Of a stretch of 64,000 nt of DNA, positions 3,161-64,000 are shown piece by piece; the first letter of the stretch is position 1; each line of letters begins with the position of its first letter. The position numbers and the translations under genes are program-made. Under the pieces are notes generated by a model. The model did not search any database. It was not told where the DNA came from and worked only from the letters and a program-made list of their open reading frames with translations. Source of the stretch: Azolla caroliniana (lineage: Eukaryota > Plantae > Polypodiophyta); assembly GCA_043228905.1 (NCBI GenBank), contig JBHGNT010000021.1, positions 3,100,001 through 3,164,000 on the forward strand, read 5' to 3'.

Positions 3161-3383
3161 GAGAAAACTTAAAAAGGGCTAGGGAAGTCACGAAATCTCA
3201 ATAGCAAAGAAGAGGGACCTTTTGCAGCGTCACACATCATTAGATTCGACAATTGAATTGGTGTGAAGGGTGGCATTGAGTTTGCAGTCGTCGTCGTCGT
3301 CGTCGTAGTATGTAGTTCCCTAGAAGGGTTCTATACTTTTGTTGTAAGTTACTAGTCATGTTGGTGTTCTTTTTCCTTTCATA

Positions 3384-3714
3384 ATGAAAGCCAAAGAGAG
3401 AGAGAGAGAGAGATGACATACCACAACAACGCAATGTGGCGTGACACATGGTGTGATGACATGGTAGGACACGACACGACACGACATGATGACATGGCAG
3501 GACACGACACGACATGATGACATGGCAGGACACGACACGACATGAAAACCAGAGAGAGAGAGAGAGAGATGACATGCCACAACAACGCAATGCGGCATGA
3601 CACATGGTGTGATGACATGGCATGGCACGACACAACACGACATGATGACATGGCAGCATGACACGATGATGGCAGGACACGACATAATGACATGGCACGA
3701 CACGACACGACATG
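3384..3714. repeat. Compound repeat: two ~158-bp units, each (GA)n plus CACGA/CATGA pentamer arrays, just upstream of the ANKZF1 gene
   Basis: Units start at 3384 and 3542 (ATGAAARCCARAGAGAG...TGACATRCCACAACAACGCAATGYGGCRTGACACATGGTGTGATGACATGG) and are followed by GACACGACAC/GACATGATGA arrays. Confidence 0.85.
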
Positions 3715-3824
3715 ATTTTTGCAGGTGTAGACTTAATAACCTCAAAAAGTCTGATGAGTGAAGTGGAAGGAAGCCCATCATTTTATGAGGCTTCTCCTCC
3801 TCCTCCTCCTCCTCCTCCATCATC

Positions 3825-6800
3825 ATGTCCATGTCCATGTCCATGTCCTCTGACGCAGCAGCCATGGCTTCTTCTTCTTCTTCTTCCTCTGCAGTCCCAC
3901 CTTCGTCCTCCTCCTCTACCAGCAGACCAAAGTCCCTCCTCGACGCATCCATCTCCTTCTTTGACTCGGCAGCTCTCCTCCTCGACCATCACCCCTCGGC
4001 CGATGGAACCTCACGAAGAAGGTACCAGACTTCTTTGGCTTCGTCGTCTTCGTCTTCTTCTTCTGCTTCTCCTTCACAGTATCTTCCTCCGTGTGATCTT
4101 TCGCAGAACCAAACCCTGACCCGATGGTCTTGTAGCACTTGCCGCACAATGGATTTCTCCTCTCTCGATGATCAGAGGTCTCACTTCAAGTCTGATTTCC
4201 ATCGTTTGAATGTAAGTGTAGCTTCAAATCTTTATTTTATTTTCACTGTGGATTCTTTTTTGTTGCATTTTCACCGTGGATTTCTTGATTTCGTTTGCTG
4301 GAATGTAAACTGAGTTCAGATTTTATTCGACTTCTTTACTATAGATTACATTTGATTTCTGCAAGATTGTTTTCGTTATGATGTGTAATATGTGTAGATC
4401 TCTTGATTTCCACCATTTCAAAATTTTATTCAACTTTTTTTTTTCATCACTTTTTTTCATTGTGATGTGTAATTGAACATTTTCCACAAATTTTGCTCAG
4501 TTTCCTTCAGTTGAATGTTAGTCAGTTACTATTTGTATTCATCGTGATATTTGATTGGATGAGTTTCACTATAGATTTCTTAATTTTCCTTATTTGTTTG
4601 TAAAATTCAGTGTTTTTCTTTATTTCAAGCATTTTCATCCTATATTGCTTCAAGTTTGTTGTCAGTAGAGTTTTGATTTTGTTTTTGATAGGACATTTTC
4701 ACTCTACAGCACATATTTTTCTTCCTTCTTTCTTCTTTCAGGTAAAACGCAAGTTTTCTGGGAAGGAAGCTGTTTCTGAAGAGGAGTTTGAGATGCTTGT
4801 AGAGGGACAATATCAGAGAGATGATGACATCTCCAGCATCTCTGGTTCTGAGGACGAGGAAAGTAATAGCAGTGAAGATGAGAATGTGCAAACGGTTGCC
4901 AAACCTTCGCCTCCACGAAAACACAATCAAATTTTCTTGTCATTAAAAAACTCAGATGAAATAGCTTCTTTGTGGAAGTGTGTCATTTTACGAGAAAATG
5001 AAAAGTTATGCAAAGATCATCAGGTTGAGCCAAACAGTGAAGGTGGGGGTCTGGTTACAGGGGATGAAATATTGCAAAGGTTGAAGAGATTTGCATCTGG
5101 TAGGGGTTGCGCAGAAAAACATTTGTGGGTTGTCTTGCTGTCAACGGGTGGGCACTTTGCAGGGTCTGTATTTGATGCAAGAAATGGTTCAATTCTAGCA
5201 CATAAAACACATCACAGGTGAGTAATCATGCAATATGAACATTGTTAATGATTGAAATATGGGCTCTTGAACAGTGTTCAGAATTTTCAGTGAGCAATTT
5301 CCATTTTGGCTAAAAAATAGAATTATTATGTAGGGTTTAACTATTGCTCAAACTTGAGAACTATACATAATCACCATCCATGCTCTTATGTACCATAGAA
5401 ACATTGTAATCACAATTCTTTTTTATCTTAGCTGTGGAATTTATAAGTTTAATTACGAATTTATGCTAATTAACACAATGACACGAATATGTTAAAGTTT
5501 TAGTTTACTCACCAAATTCACGAGCATCCAAACAAGGAGGGGTATCCACACAAATTGCATTGCTATCATAGAATGCATGATTACTTGTATCTTGATTTGA
5601 CATTGGAAAAAGAAGACATTGAAGCTTTTACAGGTTTTCAGGTATGTTGTGCGTGCTAAAGCTGGTGGAAGACAATCAACCAGAGACGCAACTGGTAGAG
5701 CTCCCAAATCTGCAGGTGCCTCTCTCCGCCGCCACAATGAAGCAGCTCTACAAAGGGTAAATCTATCATTTTCTTTCATCATAACCATATAATTTGTAAA
5801 CGCATGATTATTTTCATGGATCAAGTAGGATTTTGCAGTCCTATCATGAAGACATCAGGTGACACAGATTTCTTTTGGTTTACATCCGTAGTTCCTGTTT
5901 CACTGAAAATCACTTTTAGATTTGAAACTAATAATTCGCTGTTTAGGAGTGGATTTGAACCACTGACCCAAGGATTTTCAGTCCTTTGCTCTAACCAACT
6001 GAGGTACCTAAACCATGAGAGGAGTCACTACCAACTATTACTGCGTTGTCATTGCCCTCTTTGGTCAGAGAAGTAGCCAATTTCTTTTGCATCTCTTAGT
6101 GATTGCAGATCGTATGAAGGTCTGTAATGATATCACGTGGCTTCCATGCCCAGGAAAATATGTACATATGCACATTAAACCTATGAACATTTAAATGTTC
6201 TATTCAAGTCTCTCCTGCAAGATTATGGACCCTGCCCCTGGCCTTACTGAAGAAAAAATCTTCTTTTATGGAAATGAACAGCAAGGGTTTGGTTCTATAT
6301 GTGCGTCATGGAACTGAGTTCTTTGTATGCAGGAAATAAGAGATCTCTTAATCTCTTGGAACAGCTACCTTGAAGTAGCTTCTCGTATATTTTTACATGC
6401 TCCTTCCAGAAATAGTCGAGCCTTTTTTGGTGGTGATGGTGGACCTCTAAAACAGAATGACGAGCGAATTTGCAGCGTTCCTGTCACAACACGTCGTCCC
6501 ACTTTCAAGGAAACGAAACGTATTTTTTATGAATTGACAAGCATTTGTTATGAAAAACATGACTGCATAAAGATGGATGCTGTTATTGTAAGTGATATGA
6601 ATCCTTTGATGGGATCATCTGCAAATAAAGAAATTGATGGAATCGATAAAGATGATAACTTGATTCAAGTTTCTCCTCCTTACATTGAAACTTTGTCAAA
6701 TGAGTCAAGTCACGGGAAAAATATTGTAACGGCCGATACAAAAATGCCGGGTACATCAACCCCACTTCATGTTGCCGCTCAGATGGGAGATGTGCATTTG

Positions 6801-9800
6801 GTTTTGGAATTATTGGAGAATGCTTCCAATCCATGTGTAAGAGATGAGCGAGGACGAACACCTTACAGTGTTGCTGTTGATAAAGAGACGAGAAACATAT
6901 TTCGCAAATTCATGGCTCAACACATGGATATGTGGGATTGGCATGCAGCAAATGTACCAAGTGCTCTGACAGAAGAAATGGAAGCAGCACAAGCAGCAAA
7001 ACAGGTATGGTTTAGTGATTTGTGGCTTATTTTTATTTTAACGTGAATACTTGCATGCATACCACATACGTTGCACATTGTATGTTAAACTTTTATTTAA
7101 AGTGAATTCTTACATGCATACGACATAAGATGCACATTACGTACTAAACTAAGTTCAATTATTCTATAGGCAACCAATTCCATCAAAATAGCATAACTTG
7201 CTAATTGGAATGGATTCTTATATGTATTTGGAAAGTTCACCCTAGAATGTGATTTTTAATCATGGTCATATGTGTGTTCAAATTCTAGAATGGACACAGT
7301 TGAAGAAAAGGTTAATATCTAGTATCATGAAGATGTGAAGGTAACTTCTCTTTTGCAAATGCTGTAATGTTTCTGCTGATCATAAAGCCTTGTCTTGCAT
7401 ACAAAAGTTTTTTTTCTTTTGCTGATGATTAAAGCTTTAGGTGAAAAGATTCATCTCTAGAGAAATTGGAATATCTGATGCCCTGATCCTTGTTCCAAGA
7501 TTCCGTGACATCTTCCTGTGGGTTTCCTGTTTCAGCCCACACAGTCGGTACATGTAATGCTCAAGTTTTCATTTTGGCTTCTTCGAATGTTGCATTCATC
7601 TATCCCAGCTTATCCACGGGTGCTGTGTTTTGCTTTTATAACTAAATCTATCCAGGAACATTTCCACATTTCTTTTTGAGCTTGCTGAGCTTGAGCTTTG
7701 GCATCTATAGCTCCTGCCTATGATTGCATTTCCTTTTCTTCATTGTCTTTTACCATGAAGATGCAATGATAACAAAAAACTTGGGTTTAAATGTTATTGC
7801 TTCTTTATATAGTACGTCCTATTGATTTAAAATCAAGGAACTAAACAGGGAGCTATCAGCTTTAATTAGTGATGTGCCTCTTATTAATCTATACAACGAG
7901 ATTTATGGTAATTAATCCATGTAATTAGATTTACATAGATCAAATTTCACATGTAGCACTGCTATGTAGTTTTCCTACACTAATGTCATGGTTATTTTTA
8001 CATGTTTTTGTTTTTGTTATATTCCTAATTTTAAGCTTATGTTTCTGGCAATATTTTTAAGAGGACAACTGTTTTAACTTCTGGTAGGCGGAAAAGGAGG
8101 CAAAACGGAAATCTAAGGCTAAGGAACTGAAGAAACTTAGGAAGGAAAAGCAGAGATCTCAGGTATGCTTTCATCTAGATTTGCTTTTTAAGTATCTTCA
8201 TTTAAGGCACTTCTATGGATCCTTCTATGTCAAATAAGTATTTCTGCCATGATTTAATCATTGAAAGAAAAAAATCAAAACAGAACTGCATCAAAGAACT
8301 AAAATAAAATATTAAACGGATGCAGTGGAATGACCAAAGGTTCCCCATCGATCTGGAAGATTGATTGTATTTTCTGCTGTTTCAATATTTAAAATAGGGA
8401 TGTTATCTTGGGTAAACCATATTTATTACACAATTCAAACAGATCACAATCAGGTTTATTTGTTCCTTGTCTTTCACGTCTCAGCTGGATACATCATACC
8501 ATATGAATAACATGCCCCATCATTCTCTTTTGTAGTCTTTGAATGATAATAAATCCTTTTTGTTACAGGTGCAGGAACTAGCAACAGCCACATCCAAAGT
8601 TGTAATCAGTCAAAAGAAAACATTGGCACAGGAATTCGTAAAGCTAAAGCAAAACGTACCTCCTTCAGCATTTGATGATGTAAGTACACTTTGTTGTAAA
8701 AAGAGCCCGTTAATCAATTGCGGTATTGTTTATTTAACACAAATAGGCTTCATAATGTGAAGTACTGATTAATACTCTTGGGGGATAAACGTACACTATC
8801 CTCCTTGCTCATTTGATGTTTATACACCAACGAAAAATCCATTATGCCTATTAAAAGTACTGACTACTACAAAAGAGAACATACCCAAAAATACAGAAAC
8901 ATCAATTCCCATAAAGTAGAAAGTACATAAGTCTGACAAGATTTATGACAAGAACACTCTATGACAGAAGATCAGTGTCATGCTTCAAGCTGCCTTTTTC
9001 TATATTTTGTTTCTAGAGGTTTCAATGTGATTCCAACTATGAAAATCAAGGGTGCTTTACTAAACCACAAAGAGGAGGTAAATATAATAGACTGCAATAC
9101 ATAATTATATCTGGAAGATTTACAAGAGCCCAAGGATCAAGGCACTAAATATGCATGATGGATCTAAGTGAGCCTAAATGTAAGCTTATCGGGCTTGAGA
9201 GCTGCTCAATTTGAACATGGTAGCTATAGCATATTGATAGACACTATTGTTTAAAGTGACCAGCTCACAAAGAAATTCTGATAGTTCTCGAATTTAAGCA
9301 TGTTTAATCTCTATCTCCTGAAATAAGTAAGGCCCAAGTTATCACTATAAATACTCTAGTGTTGGCTGCCATAGTGTAAGCTCTAGCCAGGCTATGTCTT
9401 TTCCTGGCATGTGCTTGTAAAAGTAATATTCATTTCTTTTAATAGAAAATTCCTTGGAGAAGGCATACCAAAATGCTTTCTTTCCTCCACGTTCACTTGT
9501 CCATATGAAACTGTTACCTATGATCAGTATTAATTTGCTATATAGCTAATTTTCTCCTCCCCTCTTGTACACTGCTGTTAATTACAAGTTATGTTTGGGG
9601 TGAATGAAACTTTAAATTTCTCCTTGAAATTAATGTCAATAGTATGCTTGCAGGCTGCACAACGAGCAAAAGAACGAGAAATGCGTGCAGCTGCAGCTGA
9701 GAAAAGAATATCGGCAGTTTCAAGTGTATTAGAATCGAGCTCTAGGAACATCACCAGTTCTTTGAATACATCTTCTTCCAGGTCTTGTTCTTTCTGTGGA

Positions 9801-17009: not shown

Positions 17010-17578
17010 AGATATGGAAGTCTTTCTCCGCGAAAACGAAGAAGGAAAGAAAAATAAAGAGAAAGGAAAAGAAACAGAGGAGGACATGGCTGCGGCCTCT
17101 TCCTAGGTATGGACAGCTCACTCTTCCCCCCCCCCCCCCCCCCCCCCCGACATAAGACGTTTGCCTTAGCTGCCCTCTGTTTGTTAATGTGGGTTTGATC
17201 AGACCTCCTCCTCCTCCTCCTGTCTGTGCTTCAGATCTTTTTTTTTTTTAACTCAGAAGCCCAAGCAACACCCACTATCGGCAAGGATTCGTGTCTCTCT
17301 GATACGTTTCTCTTTTTCTACTCCTCTCTTGCTATTTTCGTCTGATCTTTAGGCTTCAAAAAGTGTAGGGTTTGGCTCGATCCAGTTTTCTAAAGTTTCT
17401 AGATTCCAAGAATTTGGTTTCTGTTTTGGTTTTGCGTTTTCTGGTTTCATTTGCTTTAGTTTTCTAGGTTTTCAGGAACCCTCCGATTTTTTTCTTCCTT
17501 GATCTAACGAAAGCAGGTCGTTTTAATTTGTTTGAAGATATAGTGTTCCCTCTACCACATCTGTCTGCAACATCTTCC

Positions 17579-20500
17579 ATGGCTTCTTTCTCAAAAGAAG
17601 AGTTATTAAAATACGTCCACAGCCCTGTTCATCATGCTGTGGCATCAAGAGACTACATGGCGCTACGAAGGATTGTGTCCTCTCTTCCAAAACTTGCAAA
17701 AGCAGAGGACATTGGAACCGAAAGCAGTGCTATTGCGGAGGAAGTGAAGGCAGAGAAAGTTTCGTTGGTATTAGATAGAAGAGATGTTCCTGGAAGAGAA
17801 ACCGCACTACATTTAGCTGTTAGAATGAGTGATGCTGTGGCTGCAGAAATCTTAATGGCCTCAGGCATTGATTGGAGTTTGCAGAATGAGCAAGGATGGA
17901 GTGCTTTGCAAGAAGCTGTTTGTTCTCGTGAAGATGCCATAGCTATGGTCATCATGAGATATTATCAACCCATGGCTTGGGCAAAATGGTGTAGGAGAGT
18001 CCCTAGAGTTATATCCGCAATGAATACAATGAGAGACTTCTATATGGAGCTCACATTCCATTTTGAGAGCTCAGTCATTCCGTTTATAGGCAGGATTGCG
18101 CCCTCTGATACCTATCGTATATGGAAACGTGGGTCTAATCTGAGGGCTGATATGACTCTAGCTGGATTTGATGGGTTACGTATACAAAGGTCAGACCAGA
18201 GCTTCTTGTTTCTTGGTGAAGGTAGCCCTGATGGGAAGATTCCACCAGGATCTCTATGTATGTTGAATCACAAGGAGAAAGAAATCATGAATGCGTTGGC
18301 AAGGGCAGGTACGCAACCCACCGATGCAGAAATAGCTCAGGAAGTTGCGGCTATGTCGCAAACGAATATGTATAGGCCTGGAATAGATGTTACTCAAGCA
18401 GAGGTTTTGCCTCAATTGACATGGAGGAGACAAGAGAAGTCAGAGATGGTTGGACAGTGGAAAGCTAAACTATATGATATGCATCATGTTATGGTCAGTG
18501 TAAAATCAAGGAGAGTTCCGGGTGCCATGAGTGATGAAGAGCTCTTTGGCACTTCAGACAATGATGTTAAAGAAGATGAGGGAGTGGAAGGTTTTGCTGA
18601 ACTCTTAACAGAGGAAGAAAAGAAACAGTTAGAAACAGCTCTCAAAATGGAGTATGTAGATGGAGAGGAGGATGTTTATGGTGATGGCGATGGTGATGGT
18701 GATGATGATGGAAATAGTAAGTCCTACTTGGGGATATCTAATAGCTGCCGTGGCATTGATGGTTTCAAAGATGAGAAATCTCGGCTCAGTCTATCTAGGT
18801 TGGATCTGAATGTTGATAGAAAGGAGGATAAGAAAGGATGGTTTTCATGGGGAAAACGTAGCTTCAAACAAGATGGATCGAAGCGAATAGAACCTCCGAG
18901 AAACTCTTTCTCCAGTGATGCTAAAGTTAGTGATTTTCTAGAGAACAATTCGAGAGGAGATCATGTAACAAAGGTTGCAAAGAAACAAGATGGGGCTCGC
19001 AGATCTTCTGACAGACATCTTTCAGGTTTTAAGCTAGAGCATGGGAGCCCAAAGCACAAGAGAGATAAAGATACTAGAAAGTTCACCTGTTCTAAAGAAC
19101 ATGCAAGGAAGAGGAAGGTTACTCCAAGCACTGATGCAGGCGATGAAAATGTGTATAGGAAGGGTCTTAGACCTGTTCTTTGGTTAACACAAACTTTTCC
19201 TCTGGATATCGAGGAACTTTTGCCCTTACTGGATATTCTTGCGAATAAGGTGAAAGCTGTACGTCGGCTTCGGGAGCTACTCACCACAAAGCTGCCTGTG
19301 GGAACATTTCCTGTTAAGGTATTATTTCTATATTCTCCCTAGTTTTGAATGTTGTCCTTGTAAAATATACATCTGAGATTTTTCTTTTATTTCTCTTAAT
19401 CGTTTGGTGGTTCGGCCCTTGCAAACAAAGATACATATGCTGTTTGAGATTTATATGCTCAGTTCATTCCCTTTTTGTCTGTTTCAAGGGCTATGTGGGG
19501 CCATCTTGGGAAATAATGAAAATTTCAGAGCATTTGAAGAAATAAAGAAAAAATGATTAGGAGTTTCTCCCTACAGTAATTGGATAGTCATTTTGTAATT
19601 CTGTAAACTGAGCAATGTTCTGGGATTACTTATTCTTGGATTTAAACAAATAGAATTGGTTTGTTTATGCCCCTCTTTATGAGAAACTTGATCAAACAGT
19701 AGGCTCTGCAAGGCTGCATGTTGTTTGCTTGCTTGTTATAAATTTCTAGTACTGAATTGTAAGATAGATTAAAATCAAATATAGTGTTATATTTAAATAA
19801 AGTTTATTTAGGATCCTCATTTTGGCAGATTAGTTCAACCATATTCTGGTTTTATGCAGGTATTTTCATTTGTCATTCCCACTGGGTTCTGCAATGTACA
19901 TGGTCTTTCATAGGAAAAGGACAGTATAATCTAGCAACTATGACTAACTGCCATCTTCTTCCCTGATTGATTTACTTTCCATTATGGCACCTTATTGTTT
20001 GTTTGGGAATATAAATTTTCTATAGATATACAAATCAACAATACTAAAAGATGTGGGGTGTATTTTGCTCTGTATATTAATTTGTATTCAACAATATGTA
20101 TTTTAGCATAAGAATCATTCTTTTTTTGTTATACAATTGTTTGCTTGTTTTCTTTTATACATTCTGCCTTCTTTTGGATGTATTTGAATTCTTATGTTTT
20201 TTTTTAGACTTCCTATTTTATATTGCAGTATTTAGGATATTTATTACTTACATTTATGTTTGTAGCATTTTCTAACCTTATATATTTAGAGCATTTGATT
20301 TTAATCTTCAAAATGGACTTACTACAGATTCCTGTAGATATAACATAAAGGCATATAATAATAAAATCCCTTTATATATTATCTTGTTAATATGAATAAT
20401 TCTTTCATCTGATTTGATTATCTGGATATATGATTTGTTAGATCATAAAAGAATTTTTGTTCACAGGTTGCGATACCCATAGTGCCTACCATTCGAGTGC

Positions 20501-20853
20501 TAGTCACCTTCAGCAAATTTGAGGAGTTGATCCCAAAGGACGAGTTCACAACTCCTCCGAGTAGTCCAGACCAACTCATTACTATGGATGATAGCGTTAA
20601 TCGTGTTAATGGTGATCTTACTCATTCTTCAAGTTCATGGTTATCATGGATAAAAAATTCTGCTAATAAAGCAAGCAAGATGTCCACTACCAATTCTGAA
20701 AACAACAGCTCGGAAGCGGTCATCGATCCATTCCTGATTCCGGCTGATTATGCATGGACTAGTGTAGATCTGAAGAAGCATAAAAGCAAGGAAAAGCATT
20801 TGAAGAGGGGATGCAGGCCTATCCAGAATGGTTCTGAACATAACGATAAGTGA
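17579..20853 (+). CDS. Ankyrin repeat domain-containing protein 13-like (ankyrin repeats plus GPCR-chaperone/DUF3424 domain); 2 coding exons
   Basis: Exon 17579-19318 (MASFSKEE...SPVHHAV...ETALHLAV...GWSALQEA...FYMELTFHFESSVIPFI..IAPSDTYRIWKRGSNLRADMTLAGFDG...LPVGTFPVK) splices to 20467-20853 (VAIPIVPTIRVLVTFSKFEEL...DPFLIPADY). A 5'-UTR donor TAG|GTATGG lies at 17107. Confidence 0.92.
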
Positions 20854-22522: not shown

Positions 22523-26522
<4,000 letters not shown>

Positions 26523-26889
26523 ATCTATTATAGATAAAATCTGTGTCTGTGTGAAAATGTAAATTCCTTTCCTCAAATAGTTCTTCTGAATAGATAGATA
26601 TTCGCGATTCGCCGAAGCGATGGCGATGGCGATGGCGATGGTCTTCTGCTTCTGCTTCTTTCTTTCTGCGTCGGCCAAAATTGTAAATTTATGGAATTTT
26701 AGTTTTTATCAAGAGGCCTTCAACGCTTTCACACCTTCTTCTTCTTCTTTTATATTCTAAAATGTTTTGTCCCTTCGACCACACCAAAGGAGTCACTCAC
26801 TCTATTTGTCCAAAACTTATTATATGCTCTTCACCGATACAATATATCGGTATATACAATACATATATGTTCCTTAACATATCTGTATA

Positions 26890-49644: not shown

Positions 49645-52600
49645 ATGGCTGAAGTTCTCGTTCCTGAGGTGCGCCAAAATATCTCGTCTCCTCCCCCCCC
49701 CCCCCCCCCCCCCCTTCTTCAGAAACTCTTGTCGAATTTCTTCCTGTCTCTCTCTCTCCGTGATTCTCTGAATGCCGTTTCCCTTCTTTGATTGTATTGT
49801 TTTTCTTCGCTCTATGAACACCAGTATCGCTATTATTAATTGTGTGATCGAAACAGGTTGTATCTGCAAACTGTGTCAAGGCTGTCGTTGTTGCTCATGA
49901 AGATCAGAAGACCAATCAAGTTGCCTCGCTCAAACAGAGAACACTCTCAGAATTCGACCTTCCATTGCAAATCGAAACCCGTTTTGCAATCACTGAGACC
50001 AAGTCTTTCAGGTTAACCTCTCTCTTTTCTTTTCTTTCTAGTTCCACTGTGTATAATATATCTAAAACGTAAGGTCGTGAAAAGATAATGTACATTGGCC
50101 TAAGCAAGCAAATATAAATGGAAATGTAGTTTCTCACAGGAAGTTTTTTTCTTTGCCTAATCAAGCAAAATATAAGGCAGAGAGTATATCGAAAATGAGG
50201 AAGCTTTTCTCCCTACCATATATCAGTATAAGAAAGCTTTTATTAACCCAATCAATCGTATTTCAAGATGCATTTTTGTACGATAATGTAGAATATATCT
50301 GAAATGTAGCTTCTCAAGAGCAGATTTTTGCCTAATAAAACGAAAAAAAATGTAGAGTATTTCTAAAAGAACAAAAGGTTTCTTCGGAATCAAGCAACAG
50401 ATAATGTAGAATATATCTAGAAATGGATGCCTTTTTGCAAATCAAGCAGAATATATCTAGCATTTAGCTTCTCAAAAGATTTTTTCTGCCTAATCCAGCA
50501 AAACAAATGGTAGATTTTATCTAAAAGAAGAATCCTTTTGTCTAACCCAGTAAAACATGATGAGATTATATCTAGACAATGAAGCTTTTGCCCGTTCAGT
50601 CATGTGGCTGTGGATTCTTCAGTAATCTTTCTAAGCTTTCCGTATCAATCACATTTCAAAAACGGAATCCATTTTAGCTAATCAAGTACCATTGTCCAGA
50701 ATATATCCAAAATATAACTTCTTCAAAAAAGCTTGTTGCTTAAACAAGCACCATGACCAGCATTTTTACCATCTTTCTTTGCCTAACCAAGGATCATGTA
50801 CAGTGCATATCTGTTTGAAATAATGTAGAGTATTATCTTAAATATAGCCTCTGAAGGAATCCTTTTGCCTATATTTACATGGGACATATTTCAGGGATGG
50901 GATCAAAATAGCGATATAATGAGAAGAGGATTGATGAATGGAATGGAGTAAGGGATTGGAAACAATGTAAAGCTAGAAATTCGCTGCTGTGTGTGACTAT
51001 TGTGGAAAGATGAACTATTCAACTCACTTATAAAGAATCTCCATTTTTCTTGTTGTGCTTTTACAGAACTATGCAATTTGTTCCAGGTGAGAGTCTTCTG
51101 GATGGAAAACCTAGCATCGAACATCAGGCGGAAGAATACAGCATTTCATCCTTTAACACACGCCAACTTTATCATCTTTTGAAAAAGTGCATCCATGAGA
51201 AAGATCTGAAATTAGGAAGAAAGCTCTATTCTCAGGTCGTACAGAGCGGATTAGAATCAGACTCATTCTTAGGATGCCACCTGATCCGAATGTTCACTGC
51301 CTTTGAGGATCTGGGAAAAGCAAATGAAGTATTTTGTAAGATACTGGAACCAAGCATCTTTGTATGGGGTGCCATTCTAATGGCAAATGTAAATCTTGGA
51401 CGCAGTGACATTGCAGTGGATTTATACTTTTATATGAGGAAATCAGCTTTAGAACCTGATGGACATGTCTATGTTGCTGCGCTTCAAGCATGTGCATCCT
51501 TGCCTTCCTTTATTCAAGCTATGGAAGTGCATGATCATATCATTGAATCTGGTCTAGAATGTAATGTATATGTGGGAAATGCCCTCATTGACATGTATTC
51601 TAAATGTGGAAAACACGAAGATGCACATTTTGTATTTAATAGATTGCCAAACCAAGATGCAGTGAGCTGGAATTCTCTAATTACAGGGTATGGTCAATAT
51701 GGGCACACGTTCAAGGTTATGGAACTCTTTACTGGAATGTTGAAGGAAGGTTTCCGGCCAACTAATGTGTCATTTATGTGCTGTCTTAATGCTTGTTCAA
51801 GCAGTATGAGAGTAGAGCAGGGAAGGGAAATACATTTTTACTTCATCACCTATGGTTTTGATGCAGAGGTAGAGGTAGGCGTTGCTCTGATTGAGATGTA
51901 TGTCAAATGTGGGAGCCTTGTTGATGCAAGAATGATTTTTGATAGCCTAGATTATGACATTAGAGCATGTGAGTCCATCACTATGGCATATTTTCAACAT
52001 GAGCATGATGAAGAGGTGCTAAAAATTTTCCATGGTCTGAGGCAGAAAGGTATTTTTCCTAATGTGAAGACATTCATTTGTATCCTCAGGGCCTGTGCAT
52101 CGATGTCTGACGTAGAACAAGGATGGCAGGTCCATTCAGAGATAGTAGCAAGTGGTTTTGAGCATGACATGTTTGTGGGGAATACGCTAGTTGACTTGTA
52201 TGGCAAATGTGGAAGCCTTTGTGATGCTGAAGTAGTTTTTGAAAGATTACAAAATCGTGATGTGGTGTCATGGAGTGCTCTAATCTCAGGTTTCTCTCTA
52301 CATGAACATCGTACAGAGGCCATTGCAATTTTGCGTAAGATGCATGCAGAAGGGCTGAAGCCCAACGAGATCACATTTGCCTCTGTCTTGAAAGCATGTT
52401 GTGTTGTCGCTTGCTTGGAAGATGGCAGATGGATTCACAGTCTCATTATAGACAGTGGGCTTGGGAGTGATGTATTCGTAGGAAGTGGCCTGATTGATAT
52501 GTATGCCAAATGCGGGAATCTTGAGGATGCGTGTGTGGTTATGGAGTCGTTGCCTGAACAAGATTTGGTGACATGGAATGCATTAATTTCTAGTTATGCT

Positions 52601-53791
52601 CACCATGGCTATGGTTTAGAGGCTCTGCAATGCTTCCAGAAGATGCAAGAAAATGGAAAAGAGCCAAGTTTGGGTATACTTGTCAGTGTCCTGAAAGCAT
52701 GTTCAACTGTGGCAGCCTTGGAGCAGGGCAAACAAGTACACAAACAAGTTGTGCATAAAGGACTTGAAGCAGACACCTTCATTGGCACAGCTTTGATTGA
52801 CATGTATGCCAAGTGTGGGTCTATTGAAGATGCATCCACTGTTTTTAGAGCCTTGCCAAACCCAGACATTGTTACATGGAGTACAATCATAACATGTTTT
52901 GCACAAAATAATGACTACAAATCAGCGTTAAAGTTCTTTGATGATATGCAAATAGCTGGCTTTCAACCTAATGAAGTGACTTTTACATGTCTTCTCTCTG
53001 CATGCAGCCATTCTGGTAGGCTAAAGGAAGGGTGTGAGCATTTCAAGTCCATGAAAGAGAAGTACAATATAGCACCAACACTGGAACATCATTATGTTCT
53101 GATGGAGATTTTTGGGCATGAAGCCCTCTTTGATGAAGCAGAAGACTTGATTGAGTGTGTTCCATTCTGTTCTAACATTGTTGGGTGGATGTCGTTGCTT
53201 ACTTTGTGTGGGCAACATGGTAACGTAAATCTTGGTAGAAGATGTTTTGACCGTGCTATTGGAATCAAGCCTGGATATTCTTCTGGGTATGCACTCATGT
53301 GGAATTTATATAACCAAGCTGGAATGTGTGATGAGGCAAGAAGGATTGATGACCTAAGGATTATTGCCAATGCATGGAAAAAGCCAGCAAAGGCTTTCAT
53401 AGAGGTTGACAATCAAGTGCATAGCTTTATTGTGGCAGATAAGTCCCACCCACAGAGTGATCGGATATATACAAAACTTAAAGATTTAACCAAGAAGATT
53501 AAAAGTGAAGGATACAGTCCTTCCCTTGGTGCTGTGCCTGACTGGAGCTCTGATAGGGACAAAGAAGTTTCCCTTTGCAGGCATTCTGAAAAATTAGCTA
53601 TTGCATTTGGACTAATCTCTACTGCGAAAGGTGCTACCATCCGATTGTCGAAGAATCTTCGTGTATGTGCAGATTGTCATTCTGCTGCTAAAGTAATCTC
53701 AAAGGTTGAAATGAGAGAGATCATTATCACAGATGCTTATCAGATTCATCGCTTCAAGGATGGAACGTGCTCATGTCAAAATTTTGGGTAA
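49645..53791 (+). CDS. PLS-class PPR protein with E1/E2 and a DYW deaminase domain of the KPAxA (DYW:KP) type; candidate organellar RNA-editing factor; 3 exons, ~967 aa
   Basis: Exons 49645-49668, 49857-50011 and 51067-53791 join in frame. Repeated P-L-S triplets (..VGNALIDMYSKCG.., ..SWNSLI..), then WKKPAKAFIEV, SHP, HSEKLA, KNLRVCADCH and a terminal HRFKDGTCSCQNFG*. Confidence 0.95.
50050..50875. repeat. Degenerate ~55-65-bp tandem array filling intron 2 of the PPR gene
   Basis: About a dozen copies of TTTGCCTAATCAAGCA....TAGAATATATCT.AAA..TAGCTTCTC-like motifs. Confidence 0.7.
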
Positions 53792-54430
53792 GAGGATCCA
53801 GAAATTATGTAGAGATGCGAAACTGGGTTATTATGATACGGCTCAACATTTTTCACCAAACTGTTGTATTTTATGTACAGTCAAAGACAGTATTGAGTGT
53901 CAACTTGATTATTGATGGATCACCCAGTATCAAGAGCTTGTTTGATACTACTACCAAAGAGAAGGCCTGAATTATTTCACCTAAAATGTATAAAGGGCAG
54001 AGAAAAATGGTGGTTTTAATGGGTGGGATCTTGTGATGTATCTCATATTACAAATGGAAGGTTTGGATCATGCTTGCTAACTGTTAATTCACTAGCTGAT
54101 TAAACCAACAAACATGTTTACCTGTACTTATAAACTATTTCATCCCTTGTAACATTATTGGCGTAAATTATTTTTGCAAGTAGACACATCACTCAGAGGA
54201 TTGTACTCCGTGGAATAGAAATCTTGAAAATCAATCGAGATTTGGATCCTAAAACTTGAATCTCAGGTTGCAGAAATGTAAGCTTTAACATGTAGTAACT
54301 TACAGTTGAGTGGAAAGTGTTTTGAGGAATGTTATACATGAGAGAATACATGGGATAACATTAAGGCAGCCATGAAATTTCTTCAACTGAAAGAATTGAT
54401 CCTTTTGCATGTTCTGAAAAATTCCAAAAA

Positions 54431-55158: not shown

Positions 55159-56398
55159 TTAGGTGAAGGAGATGAAGGAGAAGGCAAGCAAAAGAATGGC
55201 AACCAAACTAAATGTGGGCAATTGTAAGGAGGCAGACGAGTTTGGTGTTGAAGATGACGGGGAAATTGTTCCAATAAAAGAAGATGAGTTGGAGGACGGT
55301 ACTGTAGTAGAAGAAGAGGAATCAAAGGAAGTTGATGGAGCAATAGCTGTCACTAACAACTTCATGCCATTCGAACAATGGTTAGGAACCGAGCAAATGT
55401 AGTAGGTTGTCCCAATTTGAGTCAATGTTATGTTTGTTGGACCCATGCTATATGTATTGTCACTACTTGCTAAAGTGCATGATTCATACTCTGATTGGGT
55501 CACTTGTACAACATCATGGGTACTCCCATAATTAAAAACTACAAAAGAAACTGGATGATTAGATAATAGAACAGCTATTCTACAATCAATTTGAAAATGT
55601 ACTATGCATTCATAGAATATTTTCAATGTTTGCATGGCCTTTCAATCATATGTTTATATACATATCTTGAGTGTATGCCATTACAAACATAAATCTTAAC
55701 AAATATTTTTGTTCATGGGATCAATGTCATTATTTTTAAAAGACAACAACGAATGTTGAATAGGGCATACACTACATCGTGCTTTGTAACCTTAGCATTG
55801 TGGTTGAAGTTATGTGTAATGCCTTCTATGTGTTGTGCTCATAAAAAAACCCTCCTTTTGTTTTTACTCAAGGATCGTGCACCAAGTATAAAAATAGTTT
55901 TACAAATTCACTTTCCATAACCCATGGCTGTTTCAAATTTGATAACATTGCTTGACAAATGCTATTATTATTAGAAGGCCACACCAATAACAAGGTTGGA
56001 TCATAAACTACATATTATGTATATGTATAACAGTATATGTATATCTATACTATCCCTATGTTTGGCTATTCAATTTCTTATACTTACTCGTACATGCACA
56101 CACACAATCTACATTGTCATTATCTTGATCTACTTGGAAGTTCATGAGAGTTTAAATGGATGTCAATGATGGTGGAGAGAAAGGGATATGTAGATATAAA
56201 CTCACTGAGATTATCGCCCACATAGAAAGTTTTGGCAGCCACCCAAGTATCGTAATCAACACCCAAATTCCATCCATTAGTAGTGTCTCCCACGATGTGA
56301 TCATTGGCAATAGGCATCTCCATGAGTACAGATATCAACACCATTTGCACCAAGCATATGATAGCAATCCATGATGTGTAGTGTCTCGTTGGTTTCAT
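55159..56398 (-). CDS. Phytocyanin (uclacyanin-like blue copper protein) with signal peptide, Ser/Thr/Pro-rich stalk and GPI-like tail; 2 exons
   Basis: Exon 56398-56206 (signal peptide, HIVGDTTNGW..DYDTW...FYVGDNL) plus exon 55538-55159 (IFNY..HDVVQV....Y.SC...YYICSVPNHCSNGMKL). The His/Cys/His/Met type-1 copper ligands are intact and the C-terminus is hydrophobic. Confidence 0.92.
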
Positions 56399-57660
56399 TG
56401 CAATTCTTGTGAATGGATAAGTTTAATTTAATTCAATAGTTTGCATCCTTCATATGATCAATCTATTATTACTCCTATTACCTTCTTTAGTGCCCAATCC
56501 TTCCTCTCTAGCACCTACTATAGGTTTTGAGGCTTTCAAATTCTCTCTCCCATCTCACCTCCCCTCCACACCCTTTTTATTTGTATCTCGACGCTCAAGT
56601 CCTTTCTACCAACCTTCCCCTAACAAGTTTTAAACAATGTTTTCAACCATCCCCTCTTACAATCCAAATTACTATAATTTAGAATATAGAATTTATCTTA
56701 GCTCCATATCATATTTTTTGTTTATGAATCAAAAAATGAAGAAAAAACAACAAACTCTAGGGATTTGATATCAAAATGACATATATTATTCAAATTGTTT
56801 TTCGCCATTAATAATACGTTTTATCAACAAGCAAAATTTGAAATTTATATACGTCATTTTTGTGAATGGGAGCACCTTTTCTTTGAGCACACTAGCTCAC
56901 TTCTACCAACAAGGTCAGAAGTTGTTAGAATAATGTTAAAGCACTGAAACGGTATCAATAGTAACGTGTTTGTGTAGATTGTTACCTTCTCCCACCCACA
57001 CTTTTTCATGCTTTTCACTTCATTTAGCTTCCCCATGCACATTTAAAAAGCCTTTTGGCTCCACGATAATGGTGTCTTTCCTCATGTGTCTAATATACAT
57101 TTATTCTTCTACTTATGGTCTGACTATTCGAAAAGGAAATACTATCCTCTCCTTGTTAAGGATGCATTTGATATTGTTCACACATTTTTATGTACACCAA
57201 CTTAGATCATTATAAAATTATTCATAGACCACAAATTGTACTCAAACATTCACATCAACATGCTTCATAAGATATGCCAGATATAATGCTTTGGGGATGA
57301 ACATCCTCGTACATTTCTGAAAGAAAAAATAAACATCGTTGCTAAGATAATCCTAAACATGAAAGTCACATGTGAGAACTTGAGATCTATCAATTTGGCA
57401 TGATAATATCAGATTATGGGTGGTAATGAACTGTTTATATAATCTTTTATATTTTTTATGGTCTCGTATTTGTGTGTAAGTGAGCTTACAGGAGTTATCC
57501 CATGGTAGGTTATTGTAAAAGTACTTTTTCAAAGGAAATGGCTAACGTATAAGATACTCTTGTCTTTAAGAAAAATTAACAGGATTTTACATGTGTCATA
57601 CCAAACATCATGCTTTCTTGAAAAGTAAATATTTCTAAATTATGAGTAAAACTCCTAATG

Positions 57661-59820: not shown

Positions 59821-62689
59821 TTAAGGTCCAGAAGGCTTGACTGCTGTCGATTCTCTTGCATCTGCTTCATCTTTATTGTCTCTAGAACTTCCAACTCCTT
59901 TCTCTGCCGGTAGCTTCTTCTGCTTATTCTTCTTCAATTTCTTGAAAGACTTTGGTCCTTGATAGCGGTTGCTTGAACGATCTCCCAATTGGGTATTGTT
60001 TGGGGTAGTTTTACCTATCGGTTGATTATTTACCAATGATTGTCGATTCAGCATCTGTGGACGAACCATATGTGATCCTTGCAAGGGATGAAACGGTACA
60101 TGAGATCCACCCAAGTCAGGTTTAACACCATATAGAACACCTTGCTGAGGTGGCATCCCATGTGGCGCGATCTGATGGTGCATTATAGGAACTGGTAGCA
60201 ATCCTCTCTCGCTAGGATTTGAACCAGATACAATATCATTTGGCATCTTTCCTCTATCATTCAATGTCTGTTCAATATTACCCTTCTTAGCTGAATCAGA
60301 TAAAGTGCTTCCAGGATGACCCATCCCACTTGGGAAATGTCCAACTTGCAAACCATGTGGCTGCATCACACTAGATGGCATACTGGGTTGACCATGATTG
60401 AATGAATGATTTCTCATAGAGGTAGATAGCAAGTATGTATTAACTGGCTCTAGACGAATACCACTGTATCCTGGATCATTTTTCAAGTACTTAAATGCCA
60501 ATTGATCCACTTCCTCTATCACATCTTGGGCTAATACCGATGCCGGATCAGCCTGAACAGCATCAGCAACAGACTTATTCAAGTTATTTATAAGAAGGTG
60601 AGGATCAGGAAACATATTGTTCTCATGTAAATAAGGTGCTTGTGGCAAGCGCAATGCATCTGAACCAAGAGCATTGGATCCACGTGCTACATTCCTGTTT
60701 TCCTGAACACCTGTATTACCCCAACCCCGACCTTGTGGAGGTCGGATTTCTGTATGCGAAAATAGTTGTAGGATTTTGACCACCTGTACATAAATATCCG
60801 AATAAAAGACCAAACCTGATCATAGTAAGTTGAACCTAGTCCAATCCAGGCAAAAATCCATGCAGTGGAACCAATTTTGGTACCTGATTAGGAGACAGCT
60901 CACAATCAAACTTGCCCTTCTGACTAAAATTATCTCTAAGTACATCTCTGGTTTTGTCATCTCCTAGGGGTAGACAATCCAAAACGAGTGTAAAGCGCAC
61001 CTGCCACAAAAATAAAAATGGTCACGTGTCATAAAACATTTTATATGGACCCCTCTCTTGCTCCTGAAATTGATGCTGGACAAGGACAGAAAAAAAAATG
61101 TTTCTCATACTATTTACAGGAAAGATCAGAAGACATCTGTATTTCAGCATATCAAATGTCAAATGACAACTGGTGTGTGTATTAGCACCAGCCCTCACAA
61201 AAAATAGGCAACCTTGATTGAAGTAAATACACCTTAGCTGCTATACAGGTTAAGAGCTTGGTCCTCTTGTGCCAAAGTTACTTATATCCAATAATGAACC
61301 TTTTGTAGCGGGGGTAGAAAGAAAGATATCTCTAACGATCCATAACTGTTATAATTGTATTATCATATAATTTAAGCTCTGTGAGCTGACCTATAAATTA
61401 CAAAATATAGTAAGAAAATGAGAAGTTACCCTGGTTGAAGGTACCGAACAAGAGTATCAAAATCTGTCTGATAGAACACAAGGCTAGAGACTGTAGTAAT
61501 GCTAGTGCATTCCATAATGTAACACATCAGTCTCTGCATCATGTTAAGTATCTCTGTCCCATTGAAGGAGACAAAGGGGAAAAGAGGAAGAGAAGAGAGA
61601 CACGGAGAGATTGTGACAATAAATTCTCATACTCTTGAGAAATAGAAACGTGAAAGCCCTTGCTTTTACAAAAGAGAGATTGTCAGGAGACCAGAGGTGA
61701 TCTATGGGATGTGGCAGAAGTCATTGCAAGGATGGAACTTCAGTTCACTCAGTTTGTATGAGTTTGATGCTATGGTGTAAACTGCCAAGACAACAGCTGG
61801 ACAAACTCATTGAAATATACAAAAAATGAGAACTGCTATATAATCAACCAGATTCTTCTGTTTGTAAAACTCGCCTATGAGTCCCAAAGATAATAATCTG
61901 TAGTGAGATGCGATTATGCCTCATTTGCCCAAACATTCCTATTGAGCATGAGTATTTTATCGTTTAACAATGGTTCTGCATGTATAAAATCTTCATCAAT
62001 GCAGACTCAAGTGACATGGGATGTCACATCTACATATAAAGGGGGACTGACAAAAACAATGCTATATTAAAATAGGAAATTAAACAGACCTGGGCAGCAT
62101 ATGCCCCTTTGGAATCTTGAAAAGCCTCAGGAACAAGATTTAATCCACCGCATGAGGCGGCCTCAAACACGCCATATAGCTCCTTTGTCTCAACATTAAA
62201 CAAAAACAATTTTGTTCCGGGAATGACTCGTTCCACGACATCTCTTTGAGCTACTGGAAGGCCCAAAACATGATAATGGAAACAATCCCTCATCGTTGCC
62301 AAATTGCACAGGAAGACCAATCCCGAAGGCCTGGATCCTTCTCTGTTTACACCTTCTTGCCGAATAGTAGCATGGAATCGATACTCATCATCAGTCCTTT
62401 GATGATGATGTTCAACATCAAAGTTTCTCCTTGATTTTGGTGAGCCCAAGTCTCTTCTTCCTGCTCTTTGAGGAGACTCAAAACCCCTTCTGTGTGTCCA
62501 ACTTGGCGACCCGACACGGTTCCTTGATGGTGATTCCCATTTTCCTCTCTTTGATCTTCCAGGAGAGCCTATATCCCTTCGACGGAAATGCTCTATTGGC
62601 GGAGACCCTCTTCCTCCGCCCAGTCGCCTTCTACCAGGAGAACCTCTTTCCCATGCCCGAGATGGTTTGGAGTGCATTCTCGAAGACAT
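59821..62689 (-). CDS. DCD (development and cell death) domain protein with Arg/Ser-Pro-rich N-terminus and low-complexity C-terminus; 3 coding exons
   Basis: Exons 62689-62090, 61000-60884 and 60783-59821 join in frame. DCD signature: GLVFLCNLATMRDCFHYHVLGLP...V..VIPGTKLFLFN...ELYGVFEAASCGGLNLVPEAF.....YAAQ|VRF...CLPL...F..ELSPNQ|VVKILQLF. An in-frame TGA lies two codons upstream of the ATG. Confidence 0.9.
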
Positions 62690-64000
62690 GCTTCAAATGT
62701 TCAAAGTTATATCACTAAATCCTGTAAAGCCAAACATAACATCAGATAAAAATCATGCAGACACGCTGATACTTTCCAGGCAATCTGGTCAAAACTGTAT
62801 TAGATGTCAGTGGTATAGACCACATGACATTAAACTGTGTTGGATAGCCACTACTAATAACTATACACAGTTCAGTGGCCATAGCAAGCTCTCTGGAGAC
62901 ATGGGGAATTTCGGACTATCTTATCTGTTTGAACAGCCCAGATAGAGAAAAGTGGACGAACACCATGGAAAACTAAAGGTCTCCTTGTTGAAAGTACCAT
63001 CTTCATCCAGTGGCAAAACGTGTGCACAACTGAGGACATGATTTTGTTGAATTAATTGAGTTGAATCAGATCCAGAATAAACCTTCCTTACTGGTCTCCC
63101 TTTTAATAAGATCGCAAAAGTGGTATCAGATTACATGACCTTACGATCCATCCATATGAAGTGAGCTATATTTTCCATCATTAAATGATCTCAAGAAAAT
63201 CATATTCATATAAGAACTGGCATTTCCTGTCTTTATAGCATGCCAATCATTAAGCAGAGGATCTTACATAAAGAGGGCCCTCCATGGGAGAACAGTTGAA
63301 GCACACTGAAGAAGAAATTGATCGAATCTATATAATATAAACAGAGGAAACCAGATAAATGTTCACATATAGACTTCTTCATGCTGTGTGAAAGGAATCT
63401 CCTTAAACATTTACCCAGGACCTGCTGAGAATGCAATCTGAGAGCAAAGAATTTATCTTTCTACTAGAGAAAAGAAAAGAAAATTTGAGAAACCAATAGG
63501 AACCACCTATTCTTCAATCCACTGAATCCTTATGATCCACAAATCTACAAAATGAAGAATACATTGAAGCATAATCTTTCGACCACAAGAAATGCTTGGA
63601 ATTCCTTTGCAAGCACTTATCTTTATCCAGTGAATAATGAATGGATCAAGAAATATATCTTCGTATGTAGAGAAAACAAAAAAAAACAATAATTCACATC
63701 TTGACCCTTTAAACACGCAGAAAGCTGCAAAAATCCATAGCAAGGACACCTATTCATTGCATTCACTGAGACTACAATTTTTAATGGAAAGATCAAATAT
63801 GTGCAAGAGAACTCTTCTTCCTCAGTGAAGTAACTCTTTTGAAAAGCTGTAGCACAAATGAAAACACCTTATTAGGGCATCCCCTCTGGTGCACTACCAT
63901 AGCAAATCAGAAACCATATGATAACATCAAAGAACTTCAGATCAAAGAAGAGATCGATGTGCAACAAAATTCTTCTTCTATTTTCTGCAAAAGTATTGGT

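What the first reader, a model, noticed from the sequence alone, without database searches (positions are those of the whole stretch)
53375..53791. DYW:KP (KPAxA) deaminase domain with a non-standard NFG terminus: candidate U-to-C RNA editing factor
Seen: the PG box reads WKKPAKAFIEV instead of the usual KKPGxSWIE. The zinc/catalytic motifs HSEK and CADCH and the terminal H..CSC are intact, but the canonical RD.NRFHHF..CSC.DYW has become TDAYQIHRF..CSCQNFG. Established: KPAxA/DYW:KP domains are restricted to hornworts, ferns and some lycophytes, the lineages with reverse U-to-C editing, and engineered KP domains have shown U-to-C activity; the termini I know for this class are DYW-, GRP- and DRH-like. 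Inference: this is a native reverse-editing factor, possibly of an uncharacterised terminal subtype. HSE rather than HAE leaves the direction of editing open.
Basis: partly seen in the sequence, partly recalled or inferred. Interest (0 to 1): 0.8.

Follow-up and report, generated by a model that had tools for sequence, protein, structure and literature searches.

The report
Fern KP-type RNA-editing protein, ordinary terminus
This fern gene encodes an organelle RNA-editing protein of the known KP class, likely one that turns U into C, and its odd last three residues are a one-letter decay of the ending its fern counterparts carry, not a new subtype.

Summary
The motifs are as described. They end an intact fern PPR gene with 20 PLS repeats, E1, E2 and a DYW:KP domain. 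The domain groups with KP, not PG, proteins (SH-aLRT 100).

NFG is real: it is unchanged in four related runs. It is not a subtype. All seven orthologs end in NFW or NSW, one base away at the last codon, and 111 long-type KP proteins show 85 different last triplets. Variable KP ends are already in print (PMC11845758).

The direction of editing is less settled than the KP label implies. The protein meets only one of three published KP hallmarks: it keeps the xHP segment and HSE. It sits in a long-type group (HCE 60, HSE 44, HAE 6 of 111), apart from the short HAE type on which the active designer enzymes were built. Both zinc sites, the catalytic Glu and the donor Lys are intact, but that Lys is also in C-to-U enzymes.

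Verdict: a new member of a known class. U-to-C editor about 0.55; target and organelle unknown. The scan's index held nothing similar.

The parts
49645..49668 (+). Candidate first coding exon (ATG in a GCCATGG context, GT donor); gene model A only
   Evidence: Predicted by hand; open frame when joined to exon 2 and the acceptor at 51066 (967 aa). Not confirmed by reads.
49857..50011 (+). Candidate second exon; two frames are open. From ATG 49897 it would give a basic, Ser-rich N-terminus like an organelle presequence (model B)
   Evidence: 38 residues with 9 K/R, 7 S and 1 acidic residue; model B gives 939 aa against 940-944 aa for four full-length orthologs. Its acceptor at 51085-51086 is changed in runs X2, X8, X9 and X15, so the model is uncertain.
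51067..53791 (+). Main exon: whole PPR array, E1, E2 and DYW:KP domain, no introns
   Evidence: Open frame. A contig of run X15 (RNA is a guess) lies on 51064-54178 and has 200 further bases at its start that do not lie on 50700-51063, as expected of a splice at the AG ending 51066.
51158..52867 (+). 17 PLS repeats: L1-S1 followed by five P1-L1-S1 triplets
   Evidence: Motif boundaries and 5th/last residues; paired helices at pLDDT above 85 in the model
52868..53176 (+). P2-L2-S2 triplet
   Evidence: Lengths 35, 36 and 32 aa
53177..53377 (+). E1 and E2 motifs; E2 ends in the W that precedes KKP
   Evidence: model
53378..53788 (+). DYW:KP deaminase-fold domain, long type (no deletion against the PG domain of PDB 9kfx)
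   Evidence: Gap-free alignment to 9kfx_A 476-611, E 2.1e-43; trees
53378..53404 (+). KP box (KKPAKAFIE) in place of the PG box
   Evidence: Sequence; KKPAKA in 36 of 68 KP-type proteins
53444..53452 (+). xHP segment, kept here but missing in most KP domains
   Evidence: Sequence; PMC9478123
53582..53593 (+). HSEK: zinc-ligand His, Ser, catalytic Glu and the Lys matching KP6 K693
53651..53680 (+). KNLRVCADCH: active-site Lys (KP Lys88 equivalent), base-stacking Leu, two catalytic-zinc Cys and a second-zinc His
   Evidence: Mapped on the consensus PPR-DYW numbering; roles from PMC11845758 and PMC13324415; second-zinc ligand identity recalled
53729..53752 (+). TDAYQIHR: PPR-docking surface, changed against PG (R591>T, R595>Q, F596>I, H598>R), with the second-zinc His kept
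53768..53791 (+). CSC (second zinc site), Q, NFG terminus and stop
   Evidence: Sequence; unchanged in 4 of 4 runs; last codon GGG, one base from TGG

Best explanation
The gene encodes a full-length fern PLS-E1-E2-DYW:KP protein whose NFG end is a one-base decay of the NFW end of its fern orthologs, and which likely works as a site-specific U-to-C RNA editor in mitochondria or plastids. Shown: architecture, KP-clade membership, an ortholog group across ferns, two intact zinc sites, catalytic Glu and active-site Lys, and purifying selection. Inferred: the protein is imported into an organelle; the 20 repeats read the RNA upstream of the site (by the recalled PPR code roughly U-13, A-12, G-10, C-9, G-7, A-6); E1-E2 place the domain four bases past S2; the Lys attacks C4 of the uridine and gives the nitrogen, as proposed for designer KP enzymes. 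The domain may also lend catalysis in trans to PLS proteins that lack one, as proposed for ferns. Most U-to-C sites in the water ferns studied are mitochondrial, so a mitochondrial target is the better guess.
For: KP versus PG split with support 100 and the window protein on the KP side (58 rows; 64 rows). Profile built from 70 long-type KP domains without the ortholog group: 223.2 bits, against 183.4 for a PG profile of 132. Ortholog group with support 100 that includes Adiantum and Ceratopteris proteins, 52-58% identical over the whole length for five of them, with the same code residues at -19, -13 and -12 and like ones at -10, -7 and -6. All zinc ligands, E544, K545, K565, L567 and R568 equivalents kept. 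11 synonymous against 6 non-synonymous differences in the domain, on 88.7 and 322.3 sites, ratio about 0.15. Confident model, pLDDT 92.4, best match 9kfx, E 1.2e-41. Literature: KP domains are confined to lineages with U-to-C editing and 3 of 7 designer KP domains edit U to C (PMC9478123); Lys88 is essential (PMC11845758, PMC11713852). Five water ferns have 33-47 and 500-889 U-to-C sites in the two blocks of Table S2 of PMC12548569, read as plastid and mitochondrial.
Against: Only one of the three KP hallmarks listed in PMC11332814 is met: KP box yes; HAE no; 3-4 residue deletion no. The active designers KP2, KP3 and KP6 are of the short type; KP4, the one designer that keeps xHP, showed no editing, though three short-type designers were inactive too. 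HAE-to-HSE abolished KP3 and cut KP6 to about 7% in E. coli (it raised KP2 in human cells). The Lys is equally conserved in C-to-U enzymes (130 of 132 PG), so it does not show direction. Position 569 is V as in most PG, not the M noted for KP. The window domain scores lower on a short-KP profile (168.6, only 4 sequences) than on PG (183.4). D608 and W610, whose loss cripples PG enzymes, are both changed. No target, no organelle and no host editome were identified; the start of the protein is unresolved.
Confidence: 0.55

Rival explanations
1. The long-type fern KP proteins, this one included, are C-to-U (or two-way) editors: they left the PG group in sequence but kept its chemistry, and only the short HAE type does U-to-C in plants.
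For: HSE, V569, xHP and full PG length are kept. Short-type KP are HAE in 12 of 12 and form their own branch (support 97), while long-type are HAE in 6 of 111. KP6 also edits C to U, and a few substitutions away from the active site switch its direction (PMC9478123, PMC11845758). This ortholog group holds all 5 W-ending proteins among the 82 KP proteins.
Against: It lies firmly outside the PG branch (support 100). Every named long-type hit is from a fern or lycophyte. KP4, of this length class, showed no C-to-U activity either.
Confidence: 0.22
2. The domain folds and binds zinc but no longer edits in cis; the protein acts as an RNA-binding or scaffolding factor, or lends its domain only in trans.
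For: Four of the five residues that anchor the DYW domain on the PPR array in the consensus structure are changed (R591, R595, F596, H598), as are D608, W610 and the S2 arginine that contacts the C-terminus; alanine at 591, 595 and 596 leaves about 50, 30 and 10% activity in the PG enzyme (PMC13324415). The window lineage also lost the W kept by 7 of 7 orthologs. Ferns have far fewer DYW/KP domains than editing sites, which suggests trans action (PMC12548569, PMC13263110).
Against: Every catalytic and zinc residue is invariant in 75 of 75 long-type proteins, and F596 is non-aromatic in the short-type KP too. The domain is under purifying selection. The PPR code residues near the domain are conserved across orthologs, as expected for a cis target.
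Confidence: 0.15
3. NFG marks a separate terminal subtype of KP editors, like hornwort GRP and DRH.
For: NFG is fixed across four related runs; the N-F/S-W/G ending is shared by one well-supported ortholog group.
Against: NFG occurs only in the window protein and two near-copies (3 of 111); the group is a single ortholog lineage among dozens; 85 different last triplets occur in 111 long-type proteins; the change is one base.
Confidence: 0.04

Closest known systems
DYW:KP PPR editing factors of ferns and lycophytes (Gutmann et al. 2020 and Gerke et al. 2020, known here only through citing papers)
   Same: PLS-E1-E2-DYW layout, KP box, HxE..CxxC, active-site Lys, variable terminus, fern host.
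   Different: Long type: keeps xHP; HSE rather than HAE; V rather than M before the first Cys.
Designer KP4 (lycophyte 136-aa KP; PMC9478123)
   Same: Only designer with xHP and PG length; its E2 also appears to end in W (supplementary Fig. 2 text).
   Different: A lycophyte consensus, inactive in the assays; its DYW sequence is in a figure I could not see, so identity was not measured.
Designer KP6, KP2, KP3 (active U-to-C enzymes)
   Same: KP class; Lys88 and K693 equivalents present.
   Different: Short type with HAE; KP2/KP3 are hornwort GRP types. The window protein lies on another branch from short-type natural proteins.
Ceratopteris richardii KP509_34G039000 (KAH7284086.1), Adiantum nelumboides L7F22_039930 (MCO5585993.1), A. 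capillus-veneris GOP47_0028192
   Same: Orthologs by tree (support 100); same repeat count; 52-54% identity for the first two.
   Different: End in NSW or NFW; HSE or HAE; uncharacterised hypothetical proteins.
DYW:PG C-to-U editors (consensus PPR-DYW PDB 9kfx, OTP86 7o4e, DYW1 7w86)
   Same: Same fold, length, zinc sites, HSE, V569, K578.
   Different: PG box, RD..RFHH docking surface and DYW terminus are replaced; separate branch with support 100.

Membership tests
PLS-class PPR-DYW editing factor | (P1-L1-S1)n-P2-L2-S2-E1-E2-DYW architecture | tested here: met
PLS-class PPR-DYW editing factor | HxE(x)nCxxC catalytic zinc site and second zinc site | tested here: met
   All ligands kept
PLS-class PPR-DYW editing factor | Organelle targeting peptide | tested here: inconclusive
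   Model B gives a presequence-like N-terminus, model A does not; acceptors conflict between runs
DYW:KP class | KP pair in place of the PG box | tested here: met
   KKPAKAFIE
DYW:KP class | Groups with KP, apart from PG, in a tree of C-terminal domains | tested here: met
   Support 100; 81 on the DYW domain alone with 121 rows
DYW:KP class | Scores best on the published DYW:KP HMM | not testable with these tools
   HMM not held; own profiles give 223 (long KP), 183 (PG), 169 (short KP) bits
DYW:KP class | Host lineage with U-to-C editing | tested here: inconclusive
   Nearest named relatives are ferns; host species and its editome not identified, no genome held
DYW:KP class | Active-site Lys88 | tested here: met
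   Present, but not diagnostic: 130 of 132 PG have it
Short-type KP (KP2/3/6-like, shown U-to-C) | HAE | tested here: not met
   HSE; short type is HAE in 12 of 12
Short-type KP (KP2/3/6-like, shown U-to-C) | 3-4 residue deletion removing xHP | tested here: not met
   SHP kept; gap-free alignment to 9kfx
Short-type KP (KP2/3/6-like, shown U-to-C) | U-to-C activity | not testable with these tools
   Needs an assay
DYW:PG class | PG box (PGxSWI) and DYW terminus | tested here: not met
DYW:WW class | Groups with the hornwort WW subclade | not tested
   No identified WW sequence among my hits; WW is a non-KP hornwort subclade (PMC12684383)
Hornwort GRP / DRH subgroups | GRP or DRH terminus, hornwort host | tested here: not met
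   NFG terminus; fern relatives

The most novel reading that the evidence does not exclude
The long-type fern KP proteins (xHP kept, HCE/HSE, rebuilt PPR-docking surface, free terminus) are a functional class of their own, untested so far, that edits C to U or both ways or serves as trans-acting catalytic donors; this ortholog group, whose members differ naturally at HSE/HAE and W/G, would then be a ready-made series for finding what sets the direction of DYW chemistry.
Probability: 0.25. Interest if true: 0.6.

Novelty: new member of a known kind. Interest (0 to 1): 0.3.

Why it matters
A 2025 paper states that the activity of natural KP proteins is unknown (PMC11845758), and my searches listed no later test. 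A full-length native KP gene with orthologs in Ceratopteris and Adiantum is therefore a usable test subject, but it is one of thousands of KP domains on record (3,761 among 68 plants, PMC13386178) and nothing marks it out except its terminus, which is uninformative. The more useful point is that KP is being equated with U-to-C on the strength of short-type designers, while this protein and most fern KP proteins near it are of a long type that meets only one of the three hallmarks.

Tried and rejected
No whole genome is held, so paralogs, KP gene count and organelle contigs of the host could not be searched.

Target prediction against real editing sites was not done. The A. filiculoides plastome with editing notes is in the supplement of PMC12548569 but could not be scanned by script, and the host is not identified.

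No run on record as RNA was listed. X7, X15 and X20 are guessed to be RNA and are contigs, so expression level and transcript ends are not shown.

The careful tree did not finish; all three trees are quick IQ-TREE searches with SH-aLRT only, and branching among long-type KP groups is unresolved (support 97 for 31 rows, 81 for 29 rows). Trees used subsets: 121, 58 and 64 rows of 472 proteins fetched.

The tally classes 469 of 472 proteins by profiles built partly from the same rows, drops six cluster near-duplicates, keeps a few with broken ends, and is biased to relatives of the query, so long-to-short ratios say nothing about nature.

Rejected: sequencing error at the last codon; pseudogene (open frame, purifying selection); NFG as a subtype; HSE as a marker of direction; Lys88 as a marker of direction.

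The term KPAxA occurred in none of the papers listed. Gutmann 2020 and Gerke 2020 were not read. Fig. 2 of PMC9478123 (KP1-7 DYW alignment) and its zip supplement could not be seen and bear on how close KP4 is. No complex prediction was run. Earlier scan notes e1-7304186 and e1-7304346 concern another PPR-DYW fusion and were not used.

Full report
Observation. The finding lies at the end of one open + strand frame, 51014-53791, of 925 codons. Pfam finds PPR repeats, an E+ motif and DYW_deaminase. Parsing by hand gives L1-S1, five P1-L1-S1 triplets, P2-L2-S2, E1, E2 and the DYW domain at 53378-53788. The domain aligns without a gap to the consensus PG domain of PDB 9kfx (E 2.1e-43). An AlphaFold2 model on a 56-row alignment has mean pLDDT 92.4 and matches 9kfx best (E 1.2e-41, 47% identity).

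The terminus is real and the gene is alive. Contigs of 4 of 4 runs laid on 53300-53900 (four organism labels) span the stretch and show no difference in HSEK residues, the KNLRVCADCH stretch, CSC, NFG or the stop. Of 17 differences listed within the domain (16, one from the cut table), 11 are synonymous and 6 are not, on 88.7 and 322.3 sites: a ratio near 0.15.

Host and gene model. No genome is held. The best named hits are Adiantum and Ceratopteris proteins, so the host is a fern; the gene-dense window would suit a small-genome fern such as a water fern, which is my inference and untested. The main exon probably starts at 51067: a contig of X15 lies on 51064-54178 with 200 further bases at its start. 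Two 5' models are open. Model A joins 49645-49668 and 49857-50011 to that acceptor (967 aa, acidic N-terminus). Model B starts at ATG 49897 and uses the acceptor at 51085-51086 (939 aa, presequence-like, the length of the orthologs), but that AG is changed in all four runs. Organelle targeting is thus inferred, not shown.

Class. In trees of the C-terminal region the PG proteins form one side of a branch with support 100 and the window protein is on the KP side (58 rows; 64 rows; support 81 on the domain alone with 121 rows). A profile of 70 long-type KP domains that leaves out the ortholog group scores it 223.2 bits, a PG profile of 132 gives 183.4 and a short-KP profile of 4 gives 168.6. WW could not be tested.

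NFG is not a subtype. The window protein belongs to an ortholog group (support 100) with P0003, P0004, P0005, P0007, P0009, P0223 and P0224. Six end in NFW and one in NSW. The window's last codon is GGG, one base from TGG. Among 469 of 472 fetched proteins with the HxE motif, less six near-duplicates, 111 class as long-type KP with 85 different last triplets, 12 as short-type KP with 11, and 340 as PG, of which 256 end in DYW and 42 in DFW. NFG occurs three times: the window protein and two near-copies. PMC11845758 (parts 1-2 of 4 read) already says that KP termini are more diverse than PG, and PMC9478123 (parts 1-4 of 6 and part of supplement 2 read) places GRP and DRH in hornworts.

What is informative instead. 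PMC11332814 (passages) lists three KP hallmarks: the KP sequence, HAE, and a 3-4 residue deletion. The window protein has only the first. In my set the short type is HAE in 12 of 12 and forms a branch with support 97-99; the long type is HCE 60, HSE 44, HAE 6, HVE 1 of 111. KP4, the only designer that keeps xHP, was inactive; so were KP1, KP5 and KP7, which weakens that negative. Within the ortholog group HSE (5) and HAE (2) alternate, even between two Adiantum species, in line with the paper's conclusion that this residue does not set the direction.

Active site and docking surface. Mapped on the numbering of the consensus PPR-DYW structure (PMC13324415, sections 10-11 and passages read), the window keeps H542, E544, K545, K565, L567, R568, C570, C573, H574, K578, H597, C604 and C606. 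K565 is the Lys88 needed for U-to-C by designer enzymes (PMC11845758; PMC11713852, part 1 of 3), but 130 of 132 PG proteins have it too. The residues that dock the domain on the repeats are changed: R591>T, R595>Q, F596>I, H598>R, D608>N, W610>G, and the S2 arginine that contacts the C-terminus is H. Most of these vary throughout the long type (R591 is not among its five commonest residues in 75 rows; R387 is H in 32, R in 25), which explains a free terminus as the loss of a structural contact rather than a new function. That link is my inference.

Mechanism. Most likely (0.55) the protein enters an organelle, reads an upstream RNA element with its repeats and converts a uridine to cytidine through attack by the active-site lysine, the model proposed for designer KP enzymes; how plants release the crosslink is unknown. 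The conserved code residues suggest, by the recalled PPR code, U-13, A-12, G-10, C-9 (A-like in orthologs), G-7, A-6; this is too loose to name a target here. Ferns have few DYW and KP domains for many sites, so trans action is proposed (PMC12548569 and PMC13263110, passages) and may apply as well. Rivals: C-to-U or two-way editor (0.22); folded but non-editing in cis (0.15); true NFG subtype (0.04).

Novelty and verdict. DYW:KP proteins are a described class, with 3,761 domains counted among 68 plants (PMC13386178, passages). This is a new member with known, uncharacterised orthologs. Five literature searches listed no assay of a native KP protein and no treatment of the long fern type as a class, but the library lacks most subscription papers and I did not read Gutmann 2020 or Gerke 2020. 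The scan's own index held no look-alike. Interest 0.3: ordinary as a gene, modestly useful as a test subject. The one reading worth pursuing is that the long-type KP group differs in function from the short type (probability 0.25).

Noticed in passing
P0002 (ENA contig of 2,483 bases) against window 52622-53788: P0002 matches the window protein from residue 537 to the end with 6 differences but has a different PLS N-terminal part that is not encoded in the window. It is either an assembly chimera or a recombinant gene in which another PLS array took over this KP module.
   Followed up: partly
window 51071-51087: The first in-frame ATG of the main exon (51071) and the alternative acceptor AG (51085-51086) are both changed in related runs, so the N-terminus and targeting may differ between close relatives or by alternative splicing.
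   Followed up: partly
P0069: An unnamed protein with a PG-like box (KKPGRSWIE) and HSE but a KP-like end; it falls on the KP side of the longer-region trees, a possible intermediate form.
   Followed up: no
window 55159-56422 (-): Convergent neighbour: a plastocyanin-like (phytocyanin) gene, Pfam Cu_bind_like E 2.4e-16.
   Followed up: partly
window 3789-7046 (+), 17468-20853 (+), 26265-26705 (-), 62030-62692 (-): Ordinary plant genes: VLRF1/ankyrin (ANKZF1-like), ANKRD13-like and a DCD-domain gene, and an exon that looks like isocitrate dehydrogenase (recalled motif, no Pfam hit). No other PPR gene piece was found in the window.
   Followed up: partly
window 3240-3800: A short degenerate tandem repeat region upstream of the ANKZF1-like gene gives Cys/His/Val-rich spurious frames on the - strand.
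   Followed up: no
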